Origin: Balamuthia mandrillaris
Lineage: Eukaryota
Length of the DNA: 64,000 bases
Direction of reading: 5' to 3'
NCBI GenBank assembly: GCA_031835245.2
Contig: JAVKOQ020000043.1
Coordinates: 1 to 64,000 of the forward strand
Below are positions 16,070-46,740 of this stretch, piece by piece. Every line of letters starts with the position of its first letter. Positions within the stretch are counted from its first letter, which is position 1. The notes under the pieces were generated by a model. It was given only the letters and a program-made list of their open reading frames with translations. It had not been told where the DNA came from and did not search any database. The translations under genes were made by a program, and so were the position numbers.

Positions 16070-16752
16070 TCACATGGTGTTGAGCTTGGTCAAGATTTGC
16101 TCTGCGGTGAGGCGCTGCCATGGATCACGTTCCATGCACCACTCAAACAACTCTCGCAACCGCTTCTCTCCCTTGAGCTTCGCGTTCCTTGGCCACTCCG
16201 GCCGGTTGCTTTGCCCCGAGTGTGCCGTGAACTGGTGCGGAGAGCATGGTCCCTCTTCAGGTTGCTTGAGCGTAATCAGCTCCCATAAGGTCATTCCAAA
16301 TGACCATACTGTTCCCATCCATCCATCCATCCATCCATCAACAAGAGTTGAGCTTTAATGATCAGCAGAGAGAGAGAGAGAGAGAGAAAGAGAGGGAGGA
16401 AGAAGAAGAACAAGAACAAGAACAAGAACAAAAACAAGAACAACAAGAAGAAGAACAAGAAGAAGAAGAAGAAGAAGAAGAAGAAGAGCACGCACCGTCC
16501 GCCTTCACTCCATAACCTCCACCAGACCCTGCCAACACTTCAGGAGCAATGTATCCCACTGTTGCAGCCAGCCAGAGTAAAGGAGAAACAAAGAACCCAA
16601 GAGATGAAGTGTGCAACCAAGCAAGAGCGAGTTGAACGACAAAATCATGAAGGAGGGGAAGGAAGGAAGGAAGGAGAGAAAGGATACAGGTGCCAAGGAA
16701 GGTGAAGGCGCGGTCAGAAGGAGCCAGGCTTTTTGAAAGCCCAAAGTCGCCT
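16070..16752 (-). pseudogene. Ser/Thr protein kinase, copy C (3' exons only: DFG, APE, subdomains IX-XI)
   Basis: Inverted near-identical copy of ~11510-12432 without the LTR; reads DFGLSKS..., VGYIAPEVL...KAD, VWSFGMTLWEL...DPWQRLTAEQILTKLNTM*. Confidence 0.88.
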
Positions 16753-16903
16753 GTTTAAACCAACCAACCAACCAACCAACCAACCAACCAACCACCCAAC
16801 CAACCAACCAACCAACCCAACCACGCAAATATGAACAAAGTGCAAATGGAAAAGAAAAGGAAAGAAAAGAACAGAACATTTATTTTTTTTGAAAAAAAAC
16901 ACT

Positions 16904-19720: not shown

Positions 19721-20190
19721 AAGAGCTGGACATCTTATTAATTCCCAACGCCTGTAGTTTCATCTGCACTTTGTTTGAAAATCAAATATGAATGTGGCTC
19801 AAAGATATTTCTACTGTGTAGTGGTCTAATTATATTGGACACCCTTTATAAACACTAAAAGTTCGGAACAGTGTTCAGCCTTCCTAACATTGAATGTTCA
19901 GAAAAGTTCAATCAACCACCAAAGATACTGTGATGGCAAAGAGCTGGTCCAGGTCCTTGCCATCTTGTAGTGTTGAGGGTTGAAACTTGTTTACATAACT
20001 TCCATGAGTTTTTTGTTCAAGCATATTGTTCATAACTTGGAAATGACTTGGCATGGTTACATCATTGTGGGACATGAGTGTGGTGAACCAACCAAAAAAC
20101 CATACTACAGATACATAAATATGGAGGAGGATTGCTCTGCGTCCCTCTTGGGATATCAAGGGAATACTTATTACAATTATTGTGTAATTT

Positions 20191-20357
20191 TAAAGTCTTG
20201 AAGAGGAAGGAAAATAGATGAACTGGGATGGAAATGGCTGCTAACAGATGGATGGTGGAAACTAACTTGCTGTTAAGCAAGTTAGTATTGAATGGTCCAT
20301 CTGTTAGCAGCCATTTCCATCCCAGTTCATCTATTTTCCTTCCTCTTCAAGACTTTA
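20191..20357. repeat. Perfect 62-bp inverted repeat (fold-back) with a nested 11-bp hairpin in its loop
   Basis: 20191-20252 is the exact reverse complement of 20296-20357. The loop contains ACTAACTTGCT-gtta-AGCAAGTTAGT. Confidence 0.95.
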
Positions 20358-20935
20358 CCATTGGTTTTCAGGTAGGTGCCTTGGTTGTGGAGTTTTGCTT
20401 CTTAGAAATCCAAAAACTTCCAACCATAGAGAGATGCATTTCTTTGTTGTGCTGTGTTTCCTTGTCAGCTCATCTGTTTTCAGCCATTTCCATCCAAGTT
20501 TATCTATTTTCCTTCCTCTTCAAGACCTTACCATTGGTTTTCATCCAAGTGCCTTGGTTGCCTAATAAACCTTCTGGACATTTCTAGTGGATTGCTTAGC
20601 TTTTTGGTGATCTCAGCCCCTAATTTTTGACCAGTCCATTGGTTTTCAGCTTTTTGGATGCCAGTTCATCTATTTTCATTTGTTGTTAAAGGCCTGAGCA
20701 TTGGTGTTCATCAAGGTCCATTGGTTGTGGCGTTTTTCATCTCAAATCATCAAAGGCATAGTTTACTTTATAGGCCTTTGCTTTTTTTGACAAGTTAATT
20801 TCCACTCACCTGTTTATCCATGTTCAGCCATTTCCATCCAGGTTCATCTATCTTCCTTCTTGTTCAAGGCTTTGTTATTGGTTTTCAGGTAGGTGCCTTG
20901 GTTGTGGAGTTTTGCTTCCTAGAAACCCCAAAAAG
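20307..20935. repeat. Degenerate tandem repeat, ~170-bp period, about 4 copies
   Basis: cagccatttccatcc.agttcatctattttccttcctcttcaag...ccattggttttca recurs at ~20307, ~20481, ~20660 (more degenerate) and ~20825. Confidence 0.85.
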
Positions 20936-21782
20936 CCTACCTACCACTATAGGCAATTCATTCATTCTTTTATTGTATTTCTCTTTTCTTATCAGCTTAT
21001 CTGTTTTCACCATCAGGACCGATGATTTTACGACGTACTTCAGGCAGCAATCTCATTGCGTAAGCCGCAGCGTAAGCCGCCTCGGTCCACCCACTAACTC
21101 GCGATGATGACTCCACATTCATCGGTTGTGTTGTTGGAGGAGATACTGGGCATGGTCTCCCTCATGTGGTCCCGCTGCTGGTTGTACCATTCATCATTTG
21201 ACTGGTGGAGTGATAGTATCTTCTGAAAGAGGTAAAAAGATGGGTTGAAACGGAAGATTGAAAAACAAAAAGTTGTTGCTTTTGTTGTGTGGTCGATAGA
21301 AAATAATCCACCCACGTTTGGTAGCAGCGTTCGTCAAGGAGTAGATACCAGCAGAGGAAGAGGCTGCTACTTGCATCCAACAAAGACACTCACTTTGGTT
21401 TGCTTCTTTCTCACTTCTTTTTGTTGAATTAATTTCTTTCTGTCTGATCTTTCTTTTTTTGTCGTTTGTTGTCGTTTCTTTCTTACTGGGATTTCTCTCC
21501 TATCCACTCCCTTATCCTCTCTCTTGTCCACTGGGATTTCTCTACTATCCACTCCCTTATCCTTTCTTTTATCCTTCAGTGTTTCCATAGAAACCGATTT
21601 CTTTATTTTAATCTCCCCTTCAGAGGAGGCAGCTCAATGCCACAGCAAACCTCTATAAAATCATTTTTCATTAAACAACTTTTTAAGTAGAATCAATTTC
21701 TTTCCATAAGGGCATTATCTCTGATTTTAAGGTCACTTGGAGGACTCTTTTATCTATCACCACAACTCTTCTATCTTATCTC

Positions 21783-22005
21783 ATGTCTATCAACTCCGAG
21801 TACTGTGCTTTCAAACACTCGTCAGTACCTGACCGAAAAAGGTCCTCACCCATGCTCCATTGTGAATTGTGATCGCTGCCGTGAGTTAGAGGAGAAAAAA
21901 TCTACACGAACAGGCAAAGTCCTATCCCAACCTTTTCCCTGTCATCACAAAGGTTAGCCAAAGACAACATATTTGGAATGCTTTCTGTCTCTCTTCCACT
22001 CCCTC

Positions 22006-22045
<40 letters not shown>

Positions 22046-23943
22046 TTTCTTCTTACTTGAATTGTCCTGTGTTCTTTCTTCTCTCTTTCTCTTTCTCTTT
22101 CTCTTTCTCTTTCTCTTTCTCTTTCTCTTTCTCTTTCTCTTTCTCTTTCTCTTTCTCTTTCTCTTTCTCTTTCTGTTTGTTTTTCTTTAAATAATAACAA
22201 ACCTTTAAAATTAGATGGCTGTTGTAAAACTTTTGGTCAAGAGAGCACCTGCATTACTCATGAGCTGCATGAAGAACACGACTGCAAAGTGGAATTGGAA
22301 TGTGAGCGATGCAAAAATGCACAAACAGCAAAAGCAAAACAAGAACAAAAAAGAAAAAGAGAAGAGGAAGAAAAACAACAAGCAGAAGAAAAAGCAGAGT
22401 CACATGGGAGAAAAATACAAAAATGCATCAACATGATGGCAGAGAAGGATTGAGAGACACAAGTCAAAGAGACAATCAACTTACCTGAAAGTGAGGTACA
22501 AAAGATGCAAGCAGAGGCGTTTTTGTTAAAGCTTTATGAGAAGGAGACTTTAGGTGAATGTTTAGTCACATTGATACAAGAAGACCCAGTACTTATTTGG
22601 TACCTTGTTGATGAGTTGCCCAAGATGAAAGAATTTCTGGAACACCAACACAAACCAACACTAGCAGCATTGTTAGCCTATAAAGACATACTGCAAATAT
22701 CAGACAAAGATTGGCATCATACTGTTACCTTATTTGAACTTGGAGAATATGCTATGTTGGCACACTTGAAAAAGTTGCGAAGTGGTTACTACAACAAAAA
22801 ACACCAGCAACAACAAACATCATTATCAAGTTTGCTTTTGATGGTGCAAATATGACTTCAACAAGAAGAAAGACACAAGCTGATAACAGATGATTTGAGC
22901 CTTGCTGAAGTACAGTCTCCAAACAACTGTCATCAATACATCATCTACATTGGTGGAGAAAGCAAAGAGGAGTTTGAAAGAGAATTGAAAAGCATAGCAC
23001 CGATAATAACATATCTTACCAAGAACAAAGTAAAAATTGATGGCTGTGAATTCAAGCTTGAACCTGTGCTTGTTTGTGACCTCAAGGTGCTTGTGACGCT
23101 TCTTGGCTTGTATAACTGCTACCATCCAAAGTGCTACTGGAAGTGTCCATGGTGCCTTGCCTCAGAAAATACCATTTACGACTTCATGGTGAAAGAATGG
23201 CCTTTACAAGATGAAACAACGATGAAGAGGTTAGCAAAGGAAGCAACAGAGATACCAACAGAAGGAGGAAAAGAAACCTTTGCAAGATATAATTATGGCA
23301 TTACTGGACAATCAGTGCTTCCTTTTTCTTTGGACCACATCATCCCTTATATGCTGCATTGCTTAATGGGTGTGACAAGGAAACTCTTTGAGTTGTTAGT
23401 AGAAGAAGCATATGAGAATGAGGAAATAGGAAAGAGATACCTGACAATACTAGAGGAGATAAACATCAAGCTTATTCCAGAAGAATCAAGCAGCAAAAAG
23501 AAGAAAAAGTGAACACTGCTTGAGCGAGTGAAAAAGTCACGCCTTACTCGTCCTCAACACCAAGCTATTATTGAACATCATCAACGCTTTTTAGAAGTGC
23601 TAAAGCAAGGAGCACAAACATCAAAGCAACAAAAGAAAGTAGCTGATGTTATTGAAGTGTGGACAACATATCATAAGCTTATCTCACTTGCTGTACATAA
23701 TAAAGTAAGTAATAGTTCAAAACAAAATGAAACAAAACAAACTAAAAGAAAAAGAAATCTTTAAAAAAGAAAAAAACAAAGAAAAAAACAAACTAAAAGA
23801 AAAAGAAATCTTTAAAAAAGAAAAAAACAAAGAAAAAAAGCTAAAATAGGTACTTACTTTTTTTGAAGGTTAATATCACAGAAAAAGAGTGGCTTAAAAA
23901 GGCAAAGGTGCTTTGGCAAGGCTTTTACTGCTCGCTATGATAG
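21783..23943 (+). mobile_element. RAG1/Transib-like DDE transposase pseudogene with N-terminal Zn-finger motifs and two introns
   Basis: Colinear motifs: HPCSIVNCDRC; C2H2-like FPCHHK/DGCCKTF..ITHELHEEH across intron 21953-22214; ALLAYKDILQISDKDWHH; IIIKFAFDG (D at 22840); SPNNC..IGGES; LVCDLK (D at 23078)..LLGL..KCPWC; IIPYMLHCLMG; SRLTRPQ; intron 23705-23868; then FGKAFTARY. Stops at 22451 and 23510, several frameshifts, 3' end missing. Confidence 0.75.
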
Positions 23944-23994: not shown

Positions 23995-24840
23995 GACCCA
24001 ACAAAGGAGTGGAACAGAGGAGTGGCCCAGCAGAGGAGCATAGGAGGGCCCAGCGAAGGAGCGTAGGAGCAGCCCAGTGAAGGAACAGAAGAGTGGAGGA
24101 GTGGCCCAGCGGAGGAGTGTAGGAGTGGCCTGACAGAAGAGCAGAGGAGTAGAGGAGTTACCCAACGGAGGAGTGGCCCAGCAAAGGAGCAGCTCAGTGA
24201 AGGAACAGAGAAGTGGCCCAGCAGAGGAGCGTAGGAGTGGCCCAGTGGAGGAGTGTAGGAGTGGCCCAGCAGAGCGGAGTAGAGGTGGCCCAGTGGAGGA
24301 GTGGCCCAGTGGAGGAGTGGAGGAGTGGCCCAGCGGAGGAGTGGAGGAGTGGCCCAGCGGAGGAGTGGAGGAGTGGCCCAGCGGAGCGTAGGAGTGGCCC
24401 AGCGGAGGAGCGTAGGAGTGGCCCAGCGGAGGCGTGAGGTGGCCCAGTGGAGGAGCAGAGGAGCGGCCCAGCAGAGGAGCAGAGGAGTGACGAGTGGCCC
24501 AGTGGAGGAGCGTAGGAGAAGTGCTAAAGCAAAGAGCACAAACATCAAAGCAAGCTGACAAGAGAGCGGAGGAGTGGCCCAGCGGAGGAACAGAGGAGTG
24601 GCCCAGTGGAAGAGCATAGAAGTGGCCCAGTGGAGGAACAGAGGAGTGGCCCAGCGGAGGGGGAGGAGTGACCCAGCGGAGGAGTGGCCCAGTGGAGGAG
24701 CAGAGGAGCGGCCCAGTGGAGGAGCAGAGGAGTGGCCCAGCGGAGGAGCGGAGGAGTGGCCCAGCGGAGGAGCGTAGGAGTGGCCCAGTGGAGGAGCAGA
24801 GGAGCGGCCCAGCGGAGGAGTGGCCCAATGGAGGAGTGGT
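23995..24840. repeat. G-rich minisatellite, unit ~15-24 bp with core GAGTGGCCCAG(C/T)GGAG
   Basis: Roughly 30 variable copies. It produces the spurious WATPPLLR/GHSSAPPL ORFs. Confidence 0.95.
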
Positions 24841-24993: not shown

Positions 24994-25437
24994 TTACCTG
25001 AAGGTATAGCTTTCTGGCCACTGAAGCACGTCATGACAATTGTAAACACAGTACTTCAATCTAAGCCGTGTTTTCCCTGTGTTCGTCAAATACTTGACCG
25101 TAATATCAGGGGCCATCACTGCGTAGGAGCCACGTTTGAACTCTCTCTTTGTGTGATGGCCAAACACATCAAAGATCTCTTGCTCTGTACAAAGGGTACG
25201 TTCTTCCAAAGTCCCAAAAAAAGCAGCATGGAAGATAGGGTGAAGAGGAGCAGCAGCCGTCACAGGAAGCTTTTGTGGCTTGCGTTGAATAGCTCGTTTG
25301 ATTGCTGGGCCAAGTGCAGAAAAAACTATGTCTGCTACTGTTTCCCAAGGAATCACCAGTGGTGGTCGGGGTTTTGCCTCAAATTGAGGCGCTCTTATCC
25401 TCTCCTCTTCGTTCTCTTCTTTAATTCTCAGCGCCAT
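24994..25437 (-). CDS. Unknown ~147-aa protein (family shared with ~46.3-46.7 kb)
   Basis: Non-repetitive open frame MALRIKEE...QKLPVT...HAAFFG...REFKRGSYAVM...YCVYNCHDVLQWPESYTFR, colinear with the 46.5-kb ORF. The 3' end may continue through a GTAA donor. Confidence 0.6.
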   Translation of the reverse strand: MALRIKEENEEERIRAPQFEAKPRPPLVIPWETVADIVFSALGPAIKRAIQRKPQKLPVTAAAPLHPIFHAAFFGTLEERTLCTEQEIFDVFGHHTKREFKRGSYAVMAPDITVKYLTNTGKTRLRLKYCVYNCHDVLQWPESYTFR

Positions 25438-25590: not shown

Positions 25591-26760
25591 TTATTCTGGT
25601 GAAAGATAGGAAATCACAGACAAAGGGGTCAACTTTTGGGCAGCTGAGCCACCGTCCCCATCTTCAGCCGAACTGCTTTCCTCCTCACTGCTGGACTCTT
25701 CTCCGTCCTCATCGCTGTCTTCAGGTTGAGCCACAACGCAACGGCCGGAAGAGGCATCGCTGGAGATGGGAATATATCCTTGTGGGCATTCCTCACACAC
25801 CTCTGCCTCGTCGGAAGGACACTCTCCACATTTCTGGAAGGTCATGTCGAGATCGTACAGCTCCATTTGGCTGTTGTCGCATGCCACTGTACGTTTAAAA
25901 ACAAACAAACACATGAACAAAAGGCGTACTCATCATGCCACAAGACAAACAACCAACCAACCAACCAACAAAAATAAAAAATAAAAACAAGGGGAGATGC
26001 TGCACCTTGGATAGAAACAGAACCCATGTTATCCTCGTTGCCCTTCTCTTGGAACGTTTGACAATCATCAGAGGAATCAGACACAGGAACCACGGCGAAG
26101 GAAATTTGCAAAGATGGGTTTCCTCGCGGCTCCAAGGTCTCTTCATCCTCTCCGTCGATCGTCTCTCGTACAAAGCTCAACACCAAGACAACTTGATTCG
26201 CTTGCTCCGGCTCGAGTAACATACTGAAGAAGCAGGCTGCGATGGAGCAGTTGGAAGCTTGCGAACACATGGAGGAAGGAACGTAGGCGGACTGCGTGCC
26301 CTTGCGAATGTAAAGCCCTGCTTCGTTCGTCTCCCTCATGAAGTGGTCACAGACAATACCAGTTACAGGTTGCCCTGGCCAGGCTATCGAAGAAAGGAAG
26401 GTGTTGGCAGGATGCTTCCAGAACACGGCCATGTCCGTAATAGAGCCTCTACAGGTTTTATACTGACCACTTTCATACTTTGGTCTTCAAAGTTAGCGAA
26501 CATACCCCCAAAATAATGAGGAGAAGAAAAGAGAAGAGAGAAGAAAAAAGAGAAAAGAGAAACAAGAAACAAAAGAAGAGAAAAGCAAGAGAGAGAGAGA
26601 GAGAGAGAGAGAACTCTAACAAATAAAAAAAAACTCCGGAAACAGGAACACAAAAATAGCTTACCTCCTCCATGCAGGAACAATCAGGTTCTGCTGTAAT
26701 GTTGTTGGTGACCGCAAATTCCACGTCGAATCTAGTTTCGTCCCTCATCAGCAACGGCGG
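25591..26760 (-). pseudogene. Multi-exon Cys-containing protein with an acidic Ser-rich linker (surface-protein-like), disrupted
   Basis: Exon-like segments with GT/AG borders. A Cys-rich segment (CGECPSDEAEVCEECPQGY) and an acidic S/E linker are followed by a premature stop in a hydrophobic tail. Frame switch near 26440. Confidence 0.4.
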
Positions 26761-43657: not shown

Positions 43658-43829
43658 CTTTTCTATTCTTTTATTTGGGTGCTTGTCCCATAATAAAAAG
43701 AAAATAACAAAAAAACTGATTTGCTCAGTTTCTGCACAAAATTTTATTATCCTTCGGAAAGTCACATCAAAAAGTGCTAGGATTTAAATGTATTGTCCAA
43801 GATCAACCTGCACTACATACCTTTTCAAG

Positions 43830-44190
43830 CCTCAACTCATTCACACTGACATCTATGGGCTAATGCAAATTCTCTCCATTGGTGGTTAATGATATTTTGT
43901 AACTTTCACTGATGACTATACAAGACCTATTTCCTCAAAAACAAAAATGAAGTCATGACCAAATTCATCAAGTTTGCTAAACTTGTCACAAACCAAATTG
44001 GTCTTACTAAGACTATTCACAGTGATGGTGAAGGAGAATATTTTGGCTACCAATTTAAAAATGCACTCATCCAACAAGGCATTCATCATCAATGCTCTGC
44101 TTCATATACACCTGAGCAAAACAGTGTTGCAGAATGAAAGACCTGTTCCATTATAGAATAAGCCTTATATTGTTAGTTAAGTCCAACTTA
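43830..44190 (+). mobile_element. Ty1/copia integrase (rve) fragment
   Basis: LIHTDIYGLM..SIGG**YFVTFTDDY..YFLKNKNEV..HSDGEGEY..GIHHQCSASYTPEQNSVAE*K. Confidence 0.9.
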
Positions 44191-46313: not shown

Positions 46314-46740
46314 CTCTCTATCAAACGTGTGTGGCCATTGAAGAGTGCCTTGAGGGTTAAAAACTTGATAATTGACCCAGAGCTTGGTTTCCATCTTCTT
46401 TGGATCGTAGGACACACCGTGACCGCACGGGAGGGAGATGAGAGCATAGCTGCCACCTTTAAACTCTTTCCGACGAGGTACGTGCAGCCAGAATGCTGAT
46501 CCAACAAAATGTTCCTCGCTTGTCCATTCCACAGTACGCTCTCCAAAGATGTGCAAGTGGTACTCAAGAGGAATGGTTGTTTTGACAGATATGGGCAGTT
46601 TCTGTTTTGCCCGCAAAATGCGCTTCCGCAAAATCTGTGAGAGAGTACTGTTGACAAACCAAAGCACTTGTTCTTCAGTTACCACCAACGTTCTTGGTGG
46701 TGGTTGAACAATTTCTTCCTCTTCTCCTTTGACTTCTTTC
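46314..46740 (-). CDS. Unknown protein (possibly a pseudogene), homolog of 24994-25437
   Basis: PPPRTLVVTEEQV...QKLPIS...HLHIFG...KEFKGGSYALI...YQVFNPQGTLQWPHTFDRE. No clear in-frame ATG. Confidence 0.55.

What the first reader, a model, noticed from the sequence alone, without database searches (positions are those of the whole stretch)
21783..23943. Intron-containing RAG1/Transib-like transposase with N-terminal zinc fingers in a protist genome
Seen: joining frames across two clean GT-AG introns, two stops and several frameshifts gives a protein of roughly 600 aa. Its motifs in order are HPCSIVNCDRC, a C2H2-like finger, CxxxxxCxxC, ALLAYKDILQISDKDWHH..LAHLKK, IIIKFAFDG, SPNNC..GES, FKLEPVLVCDLK..LLGL..WKCPWC, YGITGQSVL..IIPYMLHCLMG, SRLTRPQ and FGKAFTARY. 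Established (recalled from memory): the RAG1 core has, in the same order, CLAIRVNTFLSCSQYHK..LHALR, VVKESCDG (catalytic D600), PNSELCC..DES, YDEK (D708)..EGL..YICTLC (ZnC2), KGVSAKPF..DALHCDIG, RMNGN and RFAELLSTKF. Transib shares this core. Inference: this is a member of the Transib/RAG1/Chapaev-related clade. Extra N-terminal Zn modules recall RAG1 or Chapaev rather than minimal Transib. These elements are best known from animals, so a spliced amoebozoan lineage would bear on the origin of the V(D)J recombinase. The ZnH2 His pair and catalytic Glu are missing from this copy, which is dead.
Basis: partly seen in the sequence, partly recalled or inferred. Interest (0 to 1): 0.92.

Follow-up and report, generated by a model that had tools for sequence, protein, structure and literature searches.

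The report
Amoeba RAG1-like transposon with partner gene
This is a broken copy of a jumping-gene enzyme from an amoeba lineage whose intact relatives are predicted to fold like RAG1, the enzyme that shuffles our antibody genes; it faces a second gene of no known family that likely travels with it, so it widens the RAG1 kinship without being a RAG1-RAG2 ancestor.

Summary
Confirmed, and larger than reported. Window 21783-23943 is a decayed, intron-split transposase of Balamuthia mandrillaris. Intact relatives occur in that species (13 proteins, three subfamilies), Planoprotostelium and four dictyostelids. A family profile hits ProtoRAG RAG1L (E 1.4e-7) and RAG1 in the PDB. An AlphaFold model of an intact relative (pLDDT 88) matches RAG1 (Z 25.7), ProtoRAG (23.8) and HzTransib (23.5), well above P element (12.8) and Hermes (8.2). 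The D-E-D-E residues and C2H2 zinc ligands are conserved. The N-terminal zinc modules are not RAG1/Chapaev-type (0 of 18). No TIR or TSD was found. New here: a convergent 147-aa gene (24994-25437, minus) faces the transposase in the window and in metagenome contig L001; in a Logan relative it is fused to a TET/JBP-like domain. It is not RAG2-like. The locus also yields a spliced, non-coding antisense RNA (8 of 8 CT..AC joints). Placement against Transib, Chapaev and ESTA was not testable. Verdict: new variant of a known kind.

The parts
21783..21952 (+). Transposase exon 1: ATG at 21783, frame broken near 21843; remnant of zinc module 1 (HPCSIVNCDRC) and start of module 2
   Evidence: the copy in run X3 has about 257 more letters at 21843 (table 8)
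21953..22214 (+). Intron 1 (GT..AG, microsatellite-filled), phase 1
   Evidence: junction matches uninterrupted relatives; no sense-strand spliced read seen
22215..23704 (+). Transposase exon 2: zinc module 2, coiled linker, helical region, RNase H core (D 22840, E 22958, D 23078), CPWC 23144, LH 23354; stops at 22451 and 23510; deletions near 22782 (79 nt) and 22880 (17 nt)
   Evidence: 69% identical to P0007 over 417 aa; CpG obs/exp 0.22
23705..23868 (+). Intron 2 (GTAAGT..GAAG)
   Evidence: flanks continuous in P0003 and P0006
23869..23943 (+). Remnant of exon 3 (VNITEKEWL..FGKAFTARYD) with one frameshift; the rest of the gene (His pair, last Glu, about 115 aa) is missing
24011..24839 (.). 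GC-rich tandem array (8/24-bp units) in place of the transposase 3' end; holds a 37-bp copy (24517-24553) of 23593-23629
24994..25437 (-). Convergent partner gene X, 147 aa from ATG 25437 (or last exon of a longer gene); no Pfam, PHROG or PDB family
   Evidence: 43.5% identical to L001 6176-6613, which faces a related transposase; family searches nil
21614..23690 (-). Spliced antisense RNA across the dead transposase; minus-strand introns at about 21939-22202, 22282-22484, 22532/22548-22603, 22661-22728, 22945-23019, 23202-23277, 23386-23440; longest ATG frame 74 aa
   Evidence: run X6 contigs identical to the window, 8 of 8 joints CT..AC; 2 RNA reads of run X15 show one joint
21485..21574 (+). 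Two 45-bp direct repeats upstream of the ATG; possible subterminal repeat, not shown to be an element end

Best explanation
The stretch is a decayed copy of an intron-containing transposase whose intact relatives keep the RAG1/Transib catalytic and zinc residues and are predicted to share the RAG1 fold, and it likely belongs to a two-gene cut-and-paste DNA transposon of amoebae in which a second gene faces it tail to tail. Shown: the residues, the fold match of the model, several copies in one species, the same two-gene layout in a second organism, and a spliced antisense RNA. Inferred from RAG1/Transib biochemistry: a transposase dimer binds the element ends, probably through the N-terminal zinc modules and helical region, nicks and excises through hairpins on the flanking DNA, and inserts with a short target duplication, without a RAG2. 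Inferred from the TET/JBP-like fusion in relatives and from fungal TET+ transposons: the second gene counters methylation silencing; in this copy only domain X is left. The copy died recently, by deletions, two stops and loss of its 3' end, in a CpG-depleted region. The antisense RNA is probably read-through from the facing gene, spliced at cryptic sites.
For: Profile to PDB: the 4 best of 6 hits are RAG1L/RAG1 (E 1.4e-7 to 2.9e-4), aligning D, CxxC, LH, HxxxxH and E (E 4.6e-8). Model of P0008, pLDDT 87.9: Foldseek RAG1 8.5e-16, ProtoRAG 1.2e-11, HzTransib 1.1e-10, P element 3.5e-4; VIA Z 25.7 (rmsd 4.2, 447 aligned), 23.8 (4.7, 455), 23.5 (4.4, 426), then 12.8, 10.1, 8.2. Conservation among rows covering each site: D 68/70, E 67/77, D 65/67, C 74/77, C 73/76, H 63/63, H 80/81, H 79/80, E 74/79. 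13 proteins (16 accessions) of the same species on 13 different contig lengths. Layout repeated in L001, with the two stop codons overlapping; transposase 47% (to P0004) and X 43.5% identical between the two organisms. P0165 fuses a domain with HxD..H..R to X; its only 2 PDB hits are Naegleria Tet (E 0.023, 0.033); Pfam Tet_JBP E 0.001-0.009. The copy in run X3 (about 98% alike) lacks four of the lesions.
Against: No TIR pair or TSD in the window or L001, and no empty site seen, so mobility is inferred. The two-gene layout rests on two loci read as DNA, plus P0004 and P0165 both lying on a 5195-bp Logan contig (same contig not verified). A third X homologue (46314-46721) has no transposase beside it. 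The TET hits are below Pfam's cut-off, and the window has no TET part. The link between X and the antisense RNA was not observed. 0 of 137 members hit any transposase family in Pfam singly; identity to RAG1 is only about 15%. Some of the 16 accessions may be alleles.
Confidence: 0.7

Rival explanations
1. A single-gene transposon of the same clade. X (with or without TET) is a host gene or a separate element that lies next to it by old linkage or insertion preference.
For: An X homologue without a transposase lies at 46314-46721. In the window X follows a cysteine-rich, host-like gene rather than a TET domain. X has higher CpG obs/exp (0.58) than the transposase core (0.22). Only two loci were read as DNA.
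Against: Same orientation and position in two organisms whose transposases are about 47% alike, matching divergence of both genes, and overlapping stop codons in L001.
Confidence: 0.15
2. A domesticated, non-mobile nuclease family of Amoebozoa; this locus is a host gene lost in one isolate.
For: No termini found; long-branched single representatives in dictyostelids, some with extra domains such as SWIM; the copy in run X3 lacks four lesions.
Against: At least three subfamilies with several near-identical or broken copies in one species; the L001 copy is broken too; strong CpG loss in the coding region.
Confidence: 0.08
3. A true RAG1L/ProtoRAG-type element in which X is a RAG2 counterpart that binds the transposase.
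For: Convergent layout as in ProtoRAG (PMC10629977 passages); second-Asp-to-Glu spacing median 265 aa in 29 members, 254 in P0008, near RAG1 (253) and above insect Transib (206-214) (PMC1131882); RAG1 tops the fold lists.
Against: X is about 146 aa, too short for a six-bladed kelch domain, with no kelch or PHD hit; no RAG1 N-terminal, RING, GRP or CTT motif in 18 long members; the long spacing is also reported for subgroup I Transib (PMC9435367).
Confidence: 0.07

Closest known systems
RAG1 / ProtoRAG RAG1L (PDB 4wwx, 6dbo, 6b40)
   Same: Predicted fold over RAG1 residues 460-1008, D-E-D-E tetrad, S-x3-CxxC, LH, HxxxxH, long zinc-binding insertion, and a second gene facing tail to tail.
   Different: About 15% identity; first-to-second Asp 86 aa, not 108; no NZD, RING, GRP or CTT motif; two tandem CxHxxC..H..H/CxxC modules instead; partner is not a kelch RAG2; no RSS-like ends found.
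Transib (HzTransib, PDB 6pqx; subgroups I and II of PMC9435367)
   Same: Same core fold (Z 23.5, 426 aligned), FDG at the first Asp, no RAG2.
   Different: Second-Asp-to-Glu spacing about 265 aa rather than 206-214; introns; N-terminal zinc modules; carries a second gene; CAC-starting TIRs and 5-bp TSD not found.
ESTA and other TET+ fungal CMCT transposons (PMC12730594)
   Same: Transposase with C(2)C and H(3-4)H motifs, similar to RAG1 by profile; a TET/JBP-type gene carried beside it (in relatives L001 and P0165).
   Different: Reported from fungi (no 'amoeb' in the main text); TA duplication not testable here; TET fused to the unknown domain X; direct sequence comparison not run.
Chapaev / Chapaev3
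   Same: CMCT motifs; N-terminal zinc region plus DDE core (Chapaev core motifs recalled, from no call).
   Different: Chapa/NZD-type motifs absent; no structure or Pfam model was there to compare.

Membership tests
[quoted passage not shown] | [quoted passage not shown] | tested here: met
   His pair and E seen in P0003, P0004, P0007, lost in the window copy
[quoted passage not shown] | CA..TG termini and a 2-5 bp target duplication | tested here: inconclusive
   only chance-level pairs in the window and L001, both broken copies
Transib | RAG1-core fold | tested here: met
   VIA Z 23.5 to HzTransib 6pqx, rmsd 4.4, 426 aligned
Transib | RSS-like TIR with CACAATG-type heptamer, 5-bp TSD | tested here: inconclusive
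   none found; ends may be lost; the trait is labile per bioRxiv 2026.08.26.747230 passages
Transib | Transposase groups with Transib in a tree | not testable with these tools
   no Transib or RAG1 sequence could be fetched as a stored protein; trees hold family members only
Transib | Second D to E spacing 206-214 aa (insect, subgroup II) | tested here: not met
   median 265, lowest 236, in 29 members; subgroup I is reported to keep the longer region
RAG1L / ProtoRAG | DEDE tetrad and four ZnB ligands | tested here: met
   first Asp matched by position at the end of the first core strand, not by a residue-level superposition
RAG1L / ProtoRAG | N-terminal C1-C3 motifs (NZD) and RING | tested here: not met
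   0 of 18 long members by pattern; the N-terminus was not searched by fold on its own
RAG1L / ProtoRAG | Linked RAG2L with six-bladed kelch and PHD | tested here: not met
   facing gene is 146-147 aa (275 aa with TET-like part), no kelch or PHD hit
RAG1L / ProtoRAG | GRP(R/K) NBD motif or CCGHC tail | tested here: not met
   0 of 18 by strict pattern; one distant member, P0128, has a looser CxxC..H..C tail
Chapaev | N-terminal Chapa (NZD-like) domain | tested here: inconclusive
   RAG1-type motifs absent but no Chapa profile or model was available
TET+ transposons (ESTA and kin) | TET/JBP dioxygenase gene inside the element | tested here: inconclusive
   HxD..H..R domain beside the transposase in L001 and fused to X in P0165, weak hits only; absent from the window; ends unknown
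TET+ transposons (ESTA and kin) | TA target duplication and grouping with ESTA | not testable with these tools
   no ends, no stored ESTA proteins

The most novel reading that the evidence does not exclude
An undescribed, amoebozoan-wide branch of the CMCT clade that is sister to RAG1L plus Transib, keeps the long RAG1-type zinc-binding insertion, and reached the ProtoRAG-like tail-to-tail two-gene layout on its own, with a TET/JBP-X anti-silencing gene where RAG2 would be. The overlapping 3' ends would build an antisense RNA, and so self-silencing, into the element.
Probability: 0.3. Interest if true: 0.82.

Novelty: new variant of a known kind. Interest (0 to 1): 0.62.

Why it matters
Models of RAG origin rest on animals, a few fungi, one alga and bacterial records (PMC9435367). 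A large, divergent amoebozoan family with the full RAG1 active site would be a new outgroup for rooting the RAG1L/Transib tree and for asking which RAG1 features predate RAG2. Intact members exist in harmless amoebae, so the chemistry can be tested. A TET/JBP-like passenger would extend the anti-silencing strategy known from fungal transposons to amoebae. It also corrects annotation: members are filed as hypothetical proteins, myosin-VIIb-like or caldesmon.

Tried and rejected
Pfam on window pieces, on P0002-P0005 and on 22 long relatives: no transposase family; 0 of 137 members. Single-sequence and 5-row PDB searches: 0 hits. Single-sequence AlphaFold of P0004: pLDDT 36.8, not used. Viral fold library: nothing at E<=0.001. 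Related loci: none in viral contigs for the transposase or X, none in prokaryote genomes; these pattern scans find close relatives only. Search for longer X homologues: none; it excluded proteins under 245 aa and missed P0165, so it is weak. Complex prediction of transposase with X: no answer, score 0.00, alignments not used, partner fold uncertain; not evidence either way. TIR/TSD scans: only short chance-level pairs. Sequencing error as the cause of the breaks: rejected, because contigs of runs X1 and X6 match the window letter for letter while paralogues and run X3 hold the missing letters. A protein-coding antisense gene: rejected, longest ATG frame 74 aa in both splice forms. RAG2 identity of the facing gene: rejected on length and lack of hits. 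The careful tree did not finish, and its window row had 13 residues in the wrong frame; redone with FastTree on 25 of those 31 rows with the same placement. No whole genome was held. Earlier scan findings: none returned.

Full report
1. The observation. Exon 1 starts at ATG 21783, intron 1 is 21953-22214, exon 2 is 22215-23704, intron 2 is 23705-23868, and a remnant of exon 3 ends at about 23943. The intron 1 junction is open in 1 of 3 frames and reads like uninterrupted relatives (SQPFPCHHK|DGCCKTF against SKLLPCRHHNGCCRSF in P0014). Both sense introns rest on sequence and homology: none of the 4 runs laid shows a sense-strand joint for intron 1, and intron 2 was not spanned.

2. Host and copies. 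The closest database protein is a Balamuthia mandrillaris hypothetical protein, 95% identical to the read-through. The same species holds 13 related proteins under 16 accessions on 13 different contig lengths; some may be alleles. They fall into at least three subfamilies. P0007, 69% identical to the window copy over 417 aa, has the whole core, including the His pair and last Glu that the window lacks. A profile of 5 close rows finds 921 of 1.84 billion representatives at E<=1e-3; only the best 150 were returned. I looked up 18 of them by name: 3 Balamuthia, 1 Planoprotostelium, 4 dictyostelids (Acytostelium, Heterostelium, Synstelium, Tieghemostelium), and 10 with no organism. The host range of the other hits is unknown, so 'amoebozoan' describes the named members only.

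3. How this copy broke. Against paralogues and the copy in run X3 (9 other letters in 594 over exon 2), the window lacks about 257 letters at 21843, 79 near 22782 and 17 near 22880, and has TGA at 22451 where X3 reads TGG. It also has TGA at 23510 where paralogues have Arg, a frameshift near 23908, and no last exon; a tandem array that holds a 37-bp piece of the transposase stands there. Contigs of runs X1 and X6 match the window exactly, so these are real lesions. X3 gives little depth beyond 23050, so I cannot say that its copy is whole. CpG obs/exp is 0.22 in exon 2 against 0.73 over 26500-64000, which suggests methylation-driven decay (inference).

4. What the protein is. Single sequences hit nothing in Pfam or the PDB. 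The ESM Atlas gave RAG1 clusters first for two queries (0.97 and 0.95), a lead only. A 150-row profile hits ProtoRAG RAG1L at E 1.4e-7 and zebrafish RAG1 at 1.2e-4, aligning the second Asp, S-x3-CxxC, LH, T.Y.HxxxxH and the last Glu (4.6e-8 with a second alignment). An AlphaFold model of intact P0008 (pLDDT 87.9) ranks RAG1, ProtoRAG and HzTransib first in Foldseek, then P element. VIA Z-scores are 25.7, 23.8 and 23.5 for RAG1, ProtoRAG and closed-form HzTransib, 12.8 for P, 10.1 for ISCth4 and 8.2 for Hermes. So the fold is RAG1/Transib-type, but it does not separate RAG1 from Transib, and no Chapaev, EnSpm or ESTA structure appears in the lists to compete. The nine key residues are 87-100% conserved among rows that cover them. 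The second-Asp-to-Glu distance has a median of 265 aa in 29 members, near RAG1 (253) and longer than insect Transib (206-214; PMC1131882). The N-terminus has one or two CxHxxC..H..H/CxxC modules (13 of 18 long members) and none of the RAG1 N-terminal, RING, GRP or CTT patterns (0 of 18).

5. A second gene. Metagenome contig L001 carries a broken transposase 94% identical to P0004 and, facing it, a 146-aa gene whose stop codon overlaps the transposase stop. Its homologue lies in the same position in the window (24994-25437, minus; 43.5% identity, E 2e-38). Upstream of it in L001 is a domain with HxD, H and R, and in Logan protein P0165 that domain is fused to X. It hits Naegleria Tet (E 0.023), Pfam Tet_JBP below cut-off and a 2OG-Fe(II) PHROG (E 1.7e-4). 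P0165 and P0004 both come from a 5195-bp contig, probably the same one. The window has no TET part, and a third X homologue at 46314-46721 has no transposase nearby. X has no known family and is not RAG2-like.

6. Antisense RNA. Contigs of run X6, labelled 'DNA?' by guess, match the window exactly but skip 8 segments, all CT..AC, that is GT..AG on the minus strand. The chance of all 8 fitting, given the slack, is about 2e-15. The DNA-type runs X1 and X3 show none of them; RNA run X15 shows one in 2 of its 41 laid reads (3 in 100 of the run was read). One intron has two acceptors, and the spliced product has no ATG frame over 74 aa. I read this as non-coding read-through from the facing gene, spliced at cryptic sites; the link to X was not observed.

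7. Mechanism. Shown: residues, predicted fold, several copies, repeated layout, antisense RNA. Inferred from RAG1/HzTransib biochemistry (PMC10629977 passages): nick-and-hairpin excision and insertion with a short duplication. Inferred from PMC12730594: the TET-like passenger counters silencing. Not shown: termini, target duplication, an empty site, or any activity.

8. What is in print. [quoted passage not shown] No amoeba name occurs in the readable supplement, but 5 of 21 pages are pictures and may list some. PMC12730594 (abstract, passages, supplement parts 1 and 20; tree file cut) defines the CMCT clade and TET+ ESTA elements in fungi. I saw passages only of PMC10629977, PMC1131882, PMC3417536 and bioRxiv 2021.09.26.461848, 2026.01.24.700457 and 2026.08.26.747230; preprint supplements were not seen. 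Nine literature searches listed no title or abstract start on such a family in amoebae; most listed papers were not opened, and Repbase and subscription journals were not searched.

9. Verdict. A real, dead copy of a CMCT-clade transposase with the RAG1/Transib fold, from a divergent family named so far only from amoebozoans, probably in a two-gene element. It works like Transib; it is not a RAG1L/ProtoRAG member, and Transib membership is untested. New variant of a known kind; interest 0.62.

Noticed in passing
window 46314-46721 (-): Second homologue of partner domain X (31% identical, E 2e-13) with no RAG-like transposase beside it.
   Followed up: partly
window 25594-26760 (-): Multi-exon, cysteine-rich gene just upstream of X; no Pfam or PHROG family; unclear whether it is spliced to X.
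   Followed up: partly
window 20190-21010: High-copy repeat with an internal 167-bp palindrome (20191-20357) and internal duplications; summed contig depth 1500-3800 in run X1 against about 50 for neighbouring sequence. Probably a separate non-autonomous element.
   Followed up: no
window 1-26000: CpG-depleted (obs/exp 0.2-0.6 against 0.7-1.0 in most bins further right) and full of recent inverted duplications, such as 11574-12231 with 16115-16772 (99%) and duplicated kinase exons near 1600-2088 and 10931-11359.
   Followed up: no
window 20952-21458: A contig of run X6 also covers this stretch exactly, so transcription may run on to the left of the transposase; run X3 has almost no depth at 21062-21345, which could mean a different left flank in that sample or a filtered record.
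   Followed up: partly
window 43800-44170: Looks by eye like a decayed copia-type integrase fragment in a CpG-poor bin (motif recalled, not searched).
   Followed up: no
L001 7900-7930: Read on the minus strand it starts CACGGGATTT with three GGGATTT repeats, resembling CACTGGGATTT in the window's 45-bp duplicate at 21529; possible element ends, no partner end or TSD found.
   Followed up: partly
L001 900-2100: Old decayed element with CpG obs/exp 0.02, piggyBac-like by eye; no Pfam hit on two frames tested.
   Followed up: partly
P0010, P0126, P0041/P0092: Family members with extra domains: Ulp1 protease (E 9e-19), SWIM finger (E 0.001), and a long insertion inside the zinc-binding region.
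   Followed up: no
P0008 cluster: Intact 782-aa members are annotated as unconventional myosin-VIIb-like and caldesmon; P0008 and P0157 differ by one residue by eye and lie on contigs of different length.
   Followed up: partly
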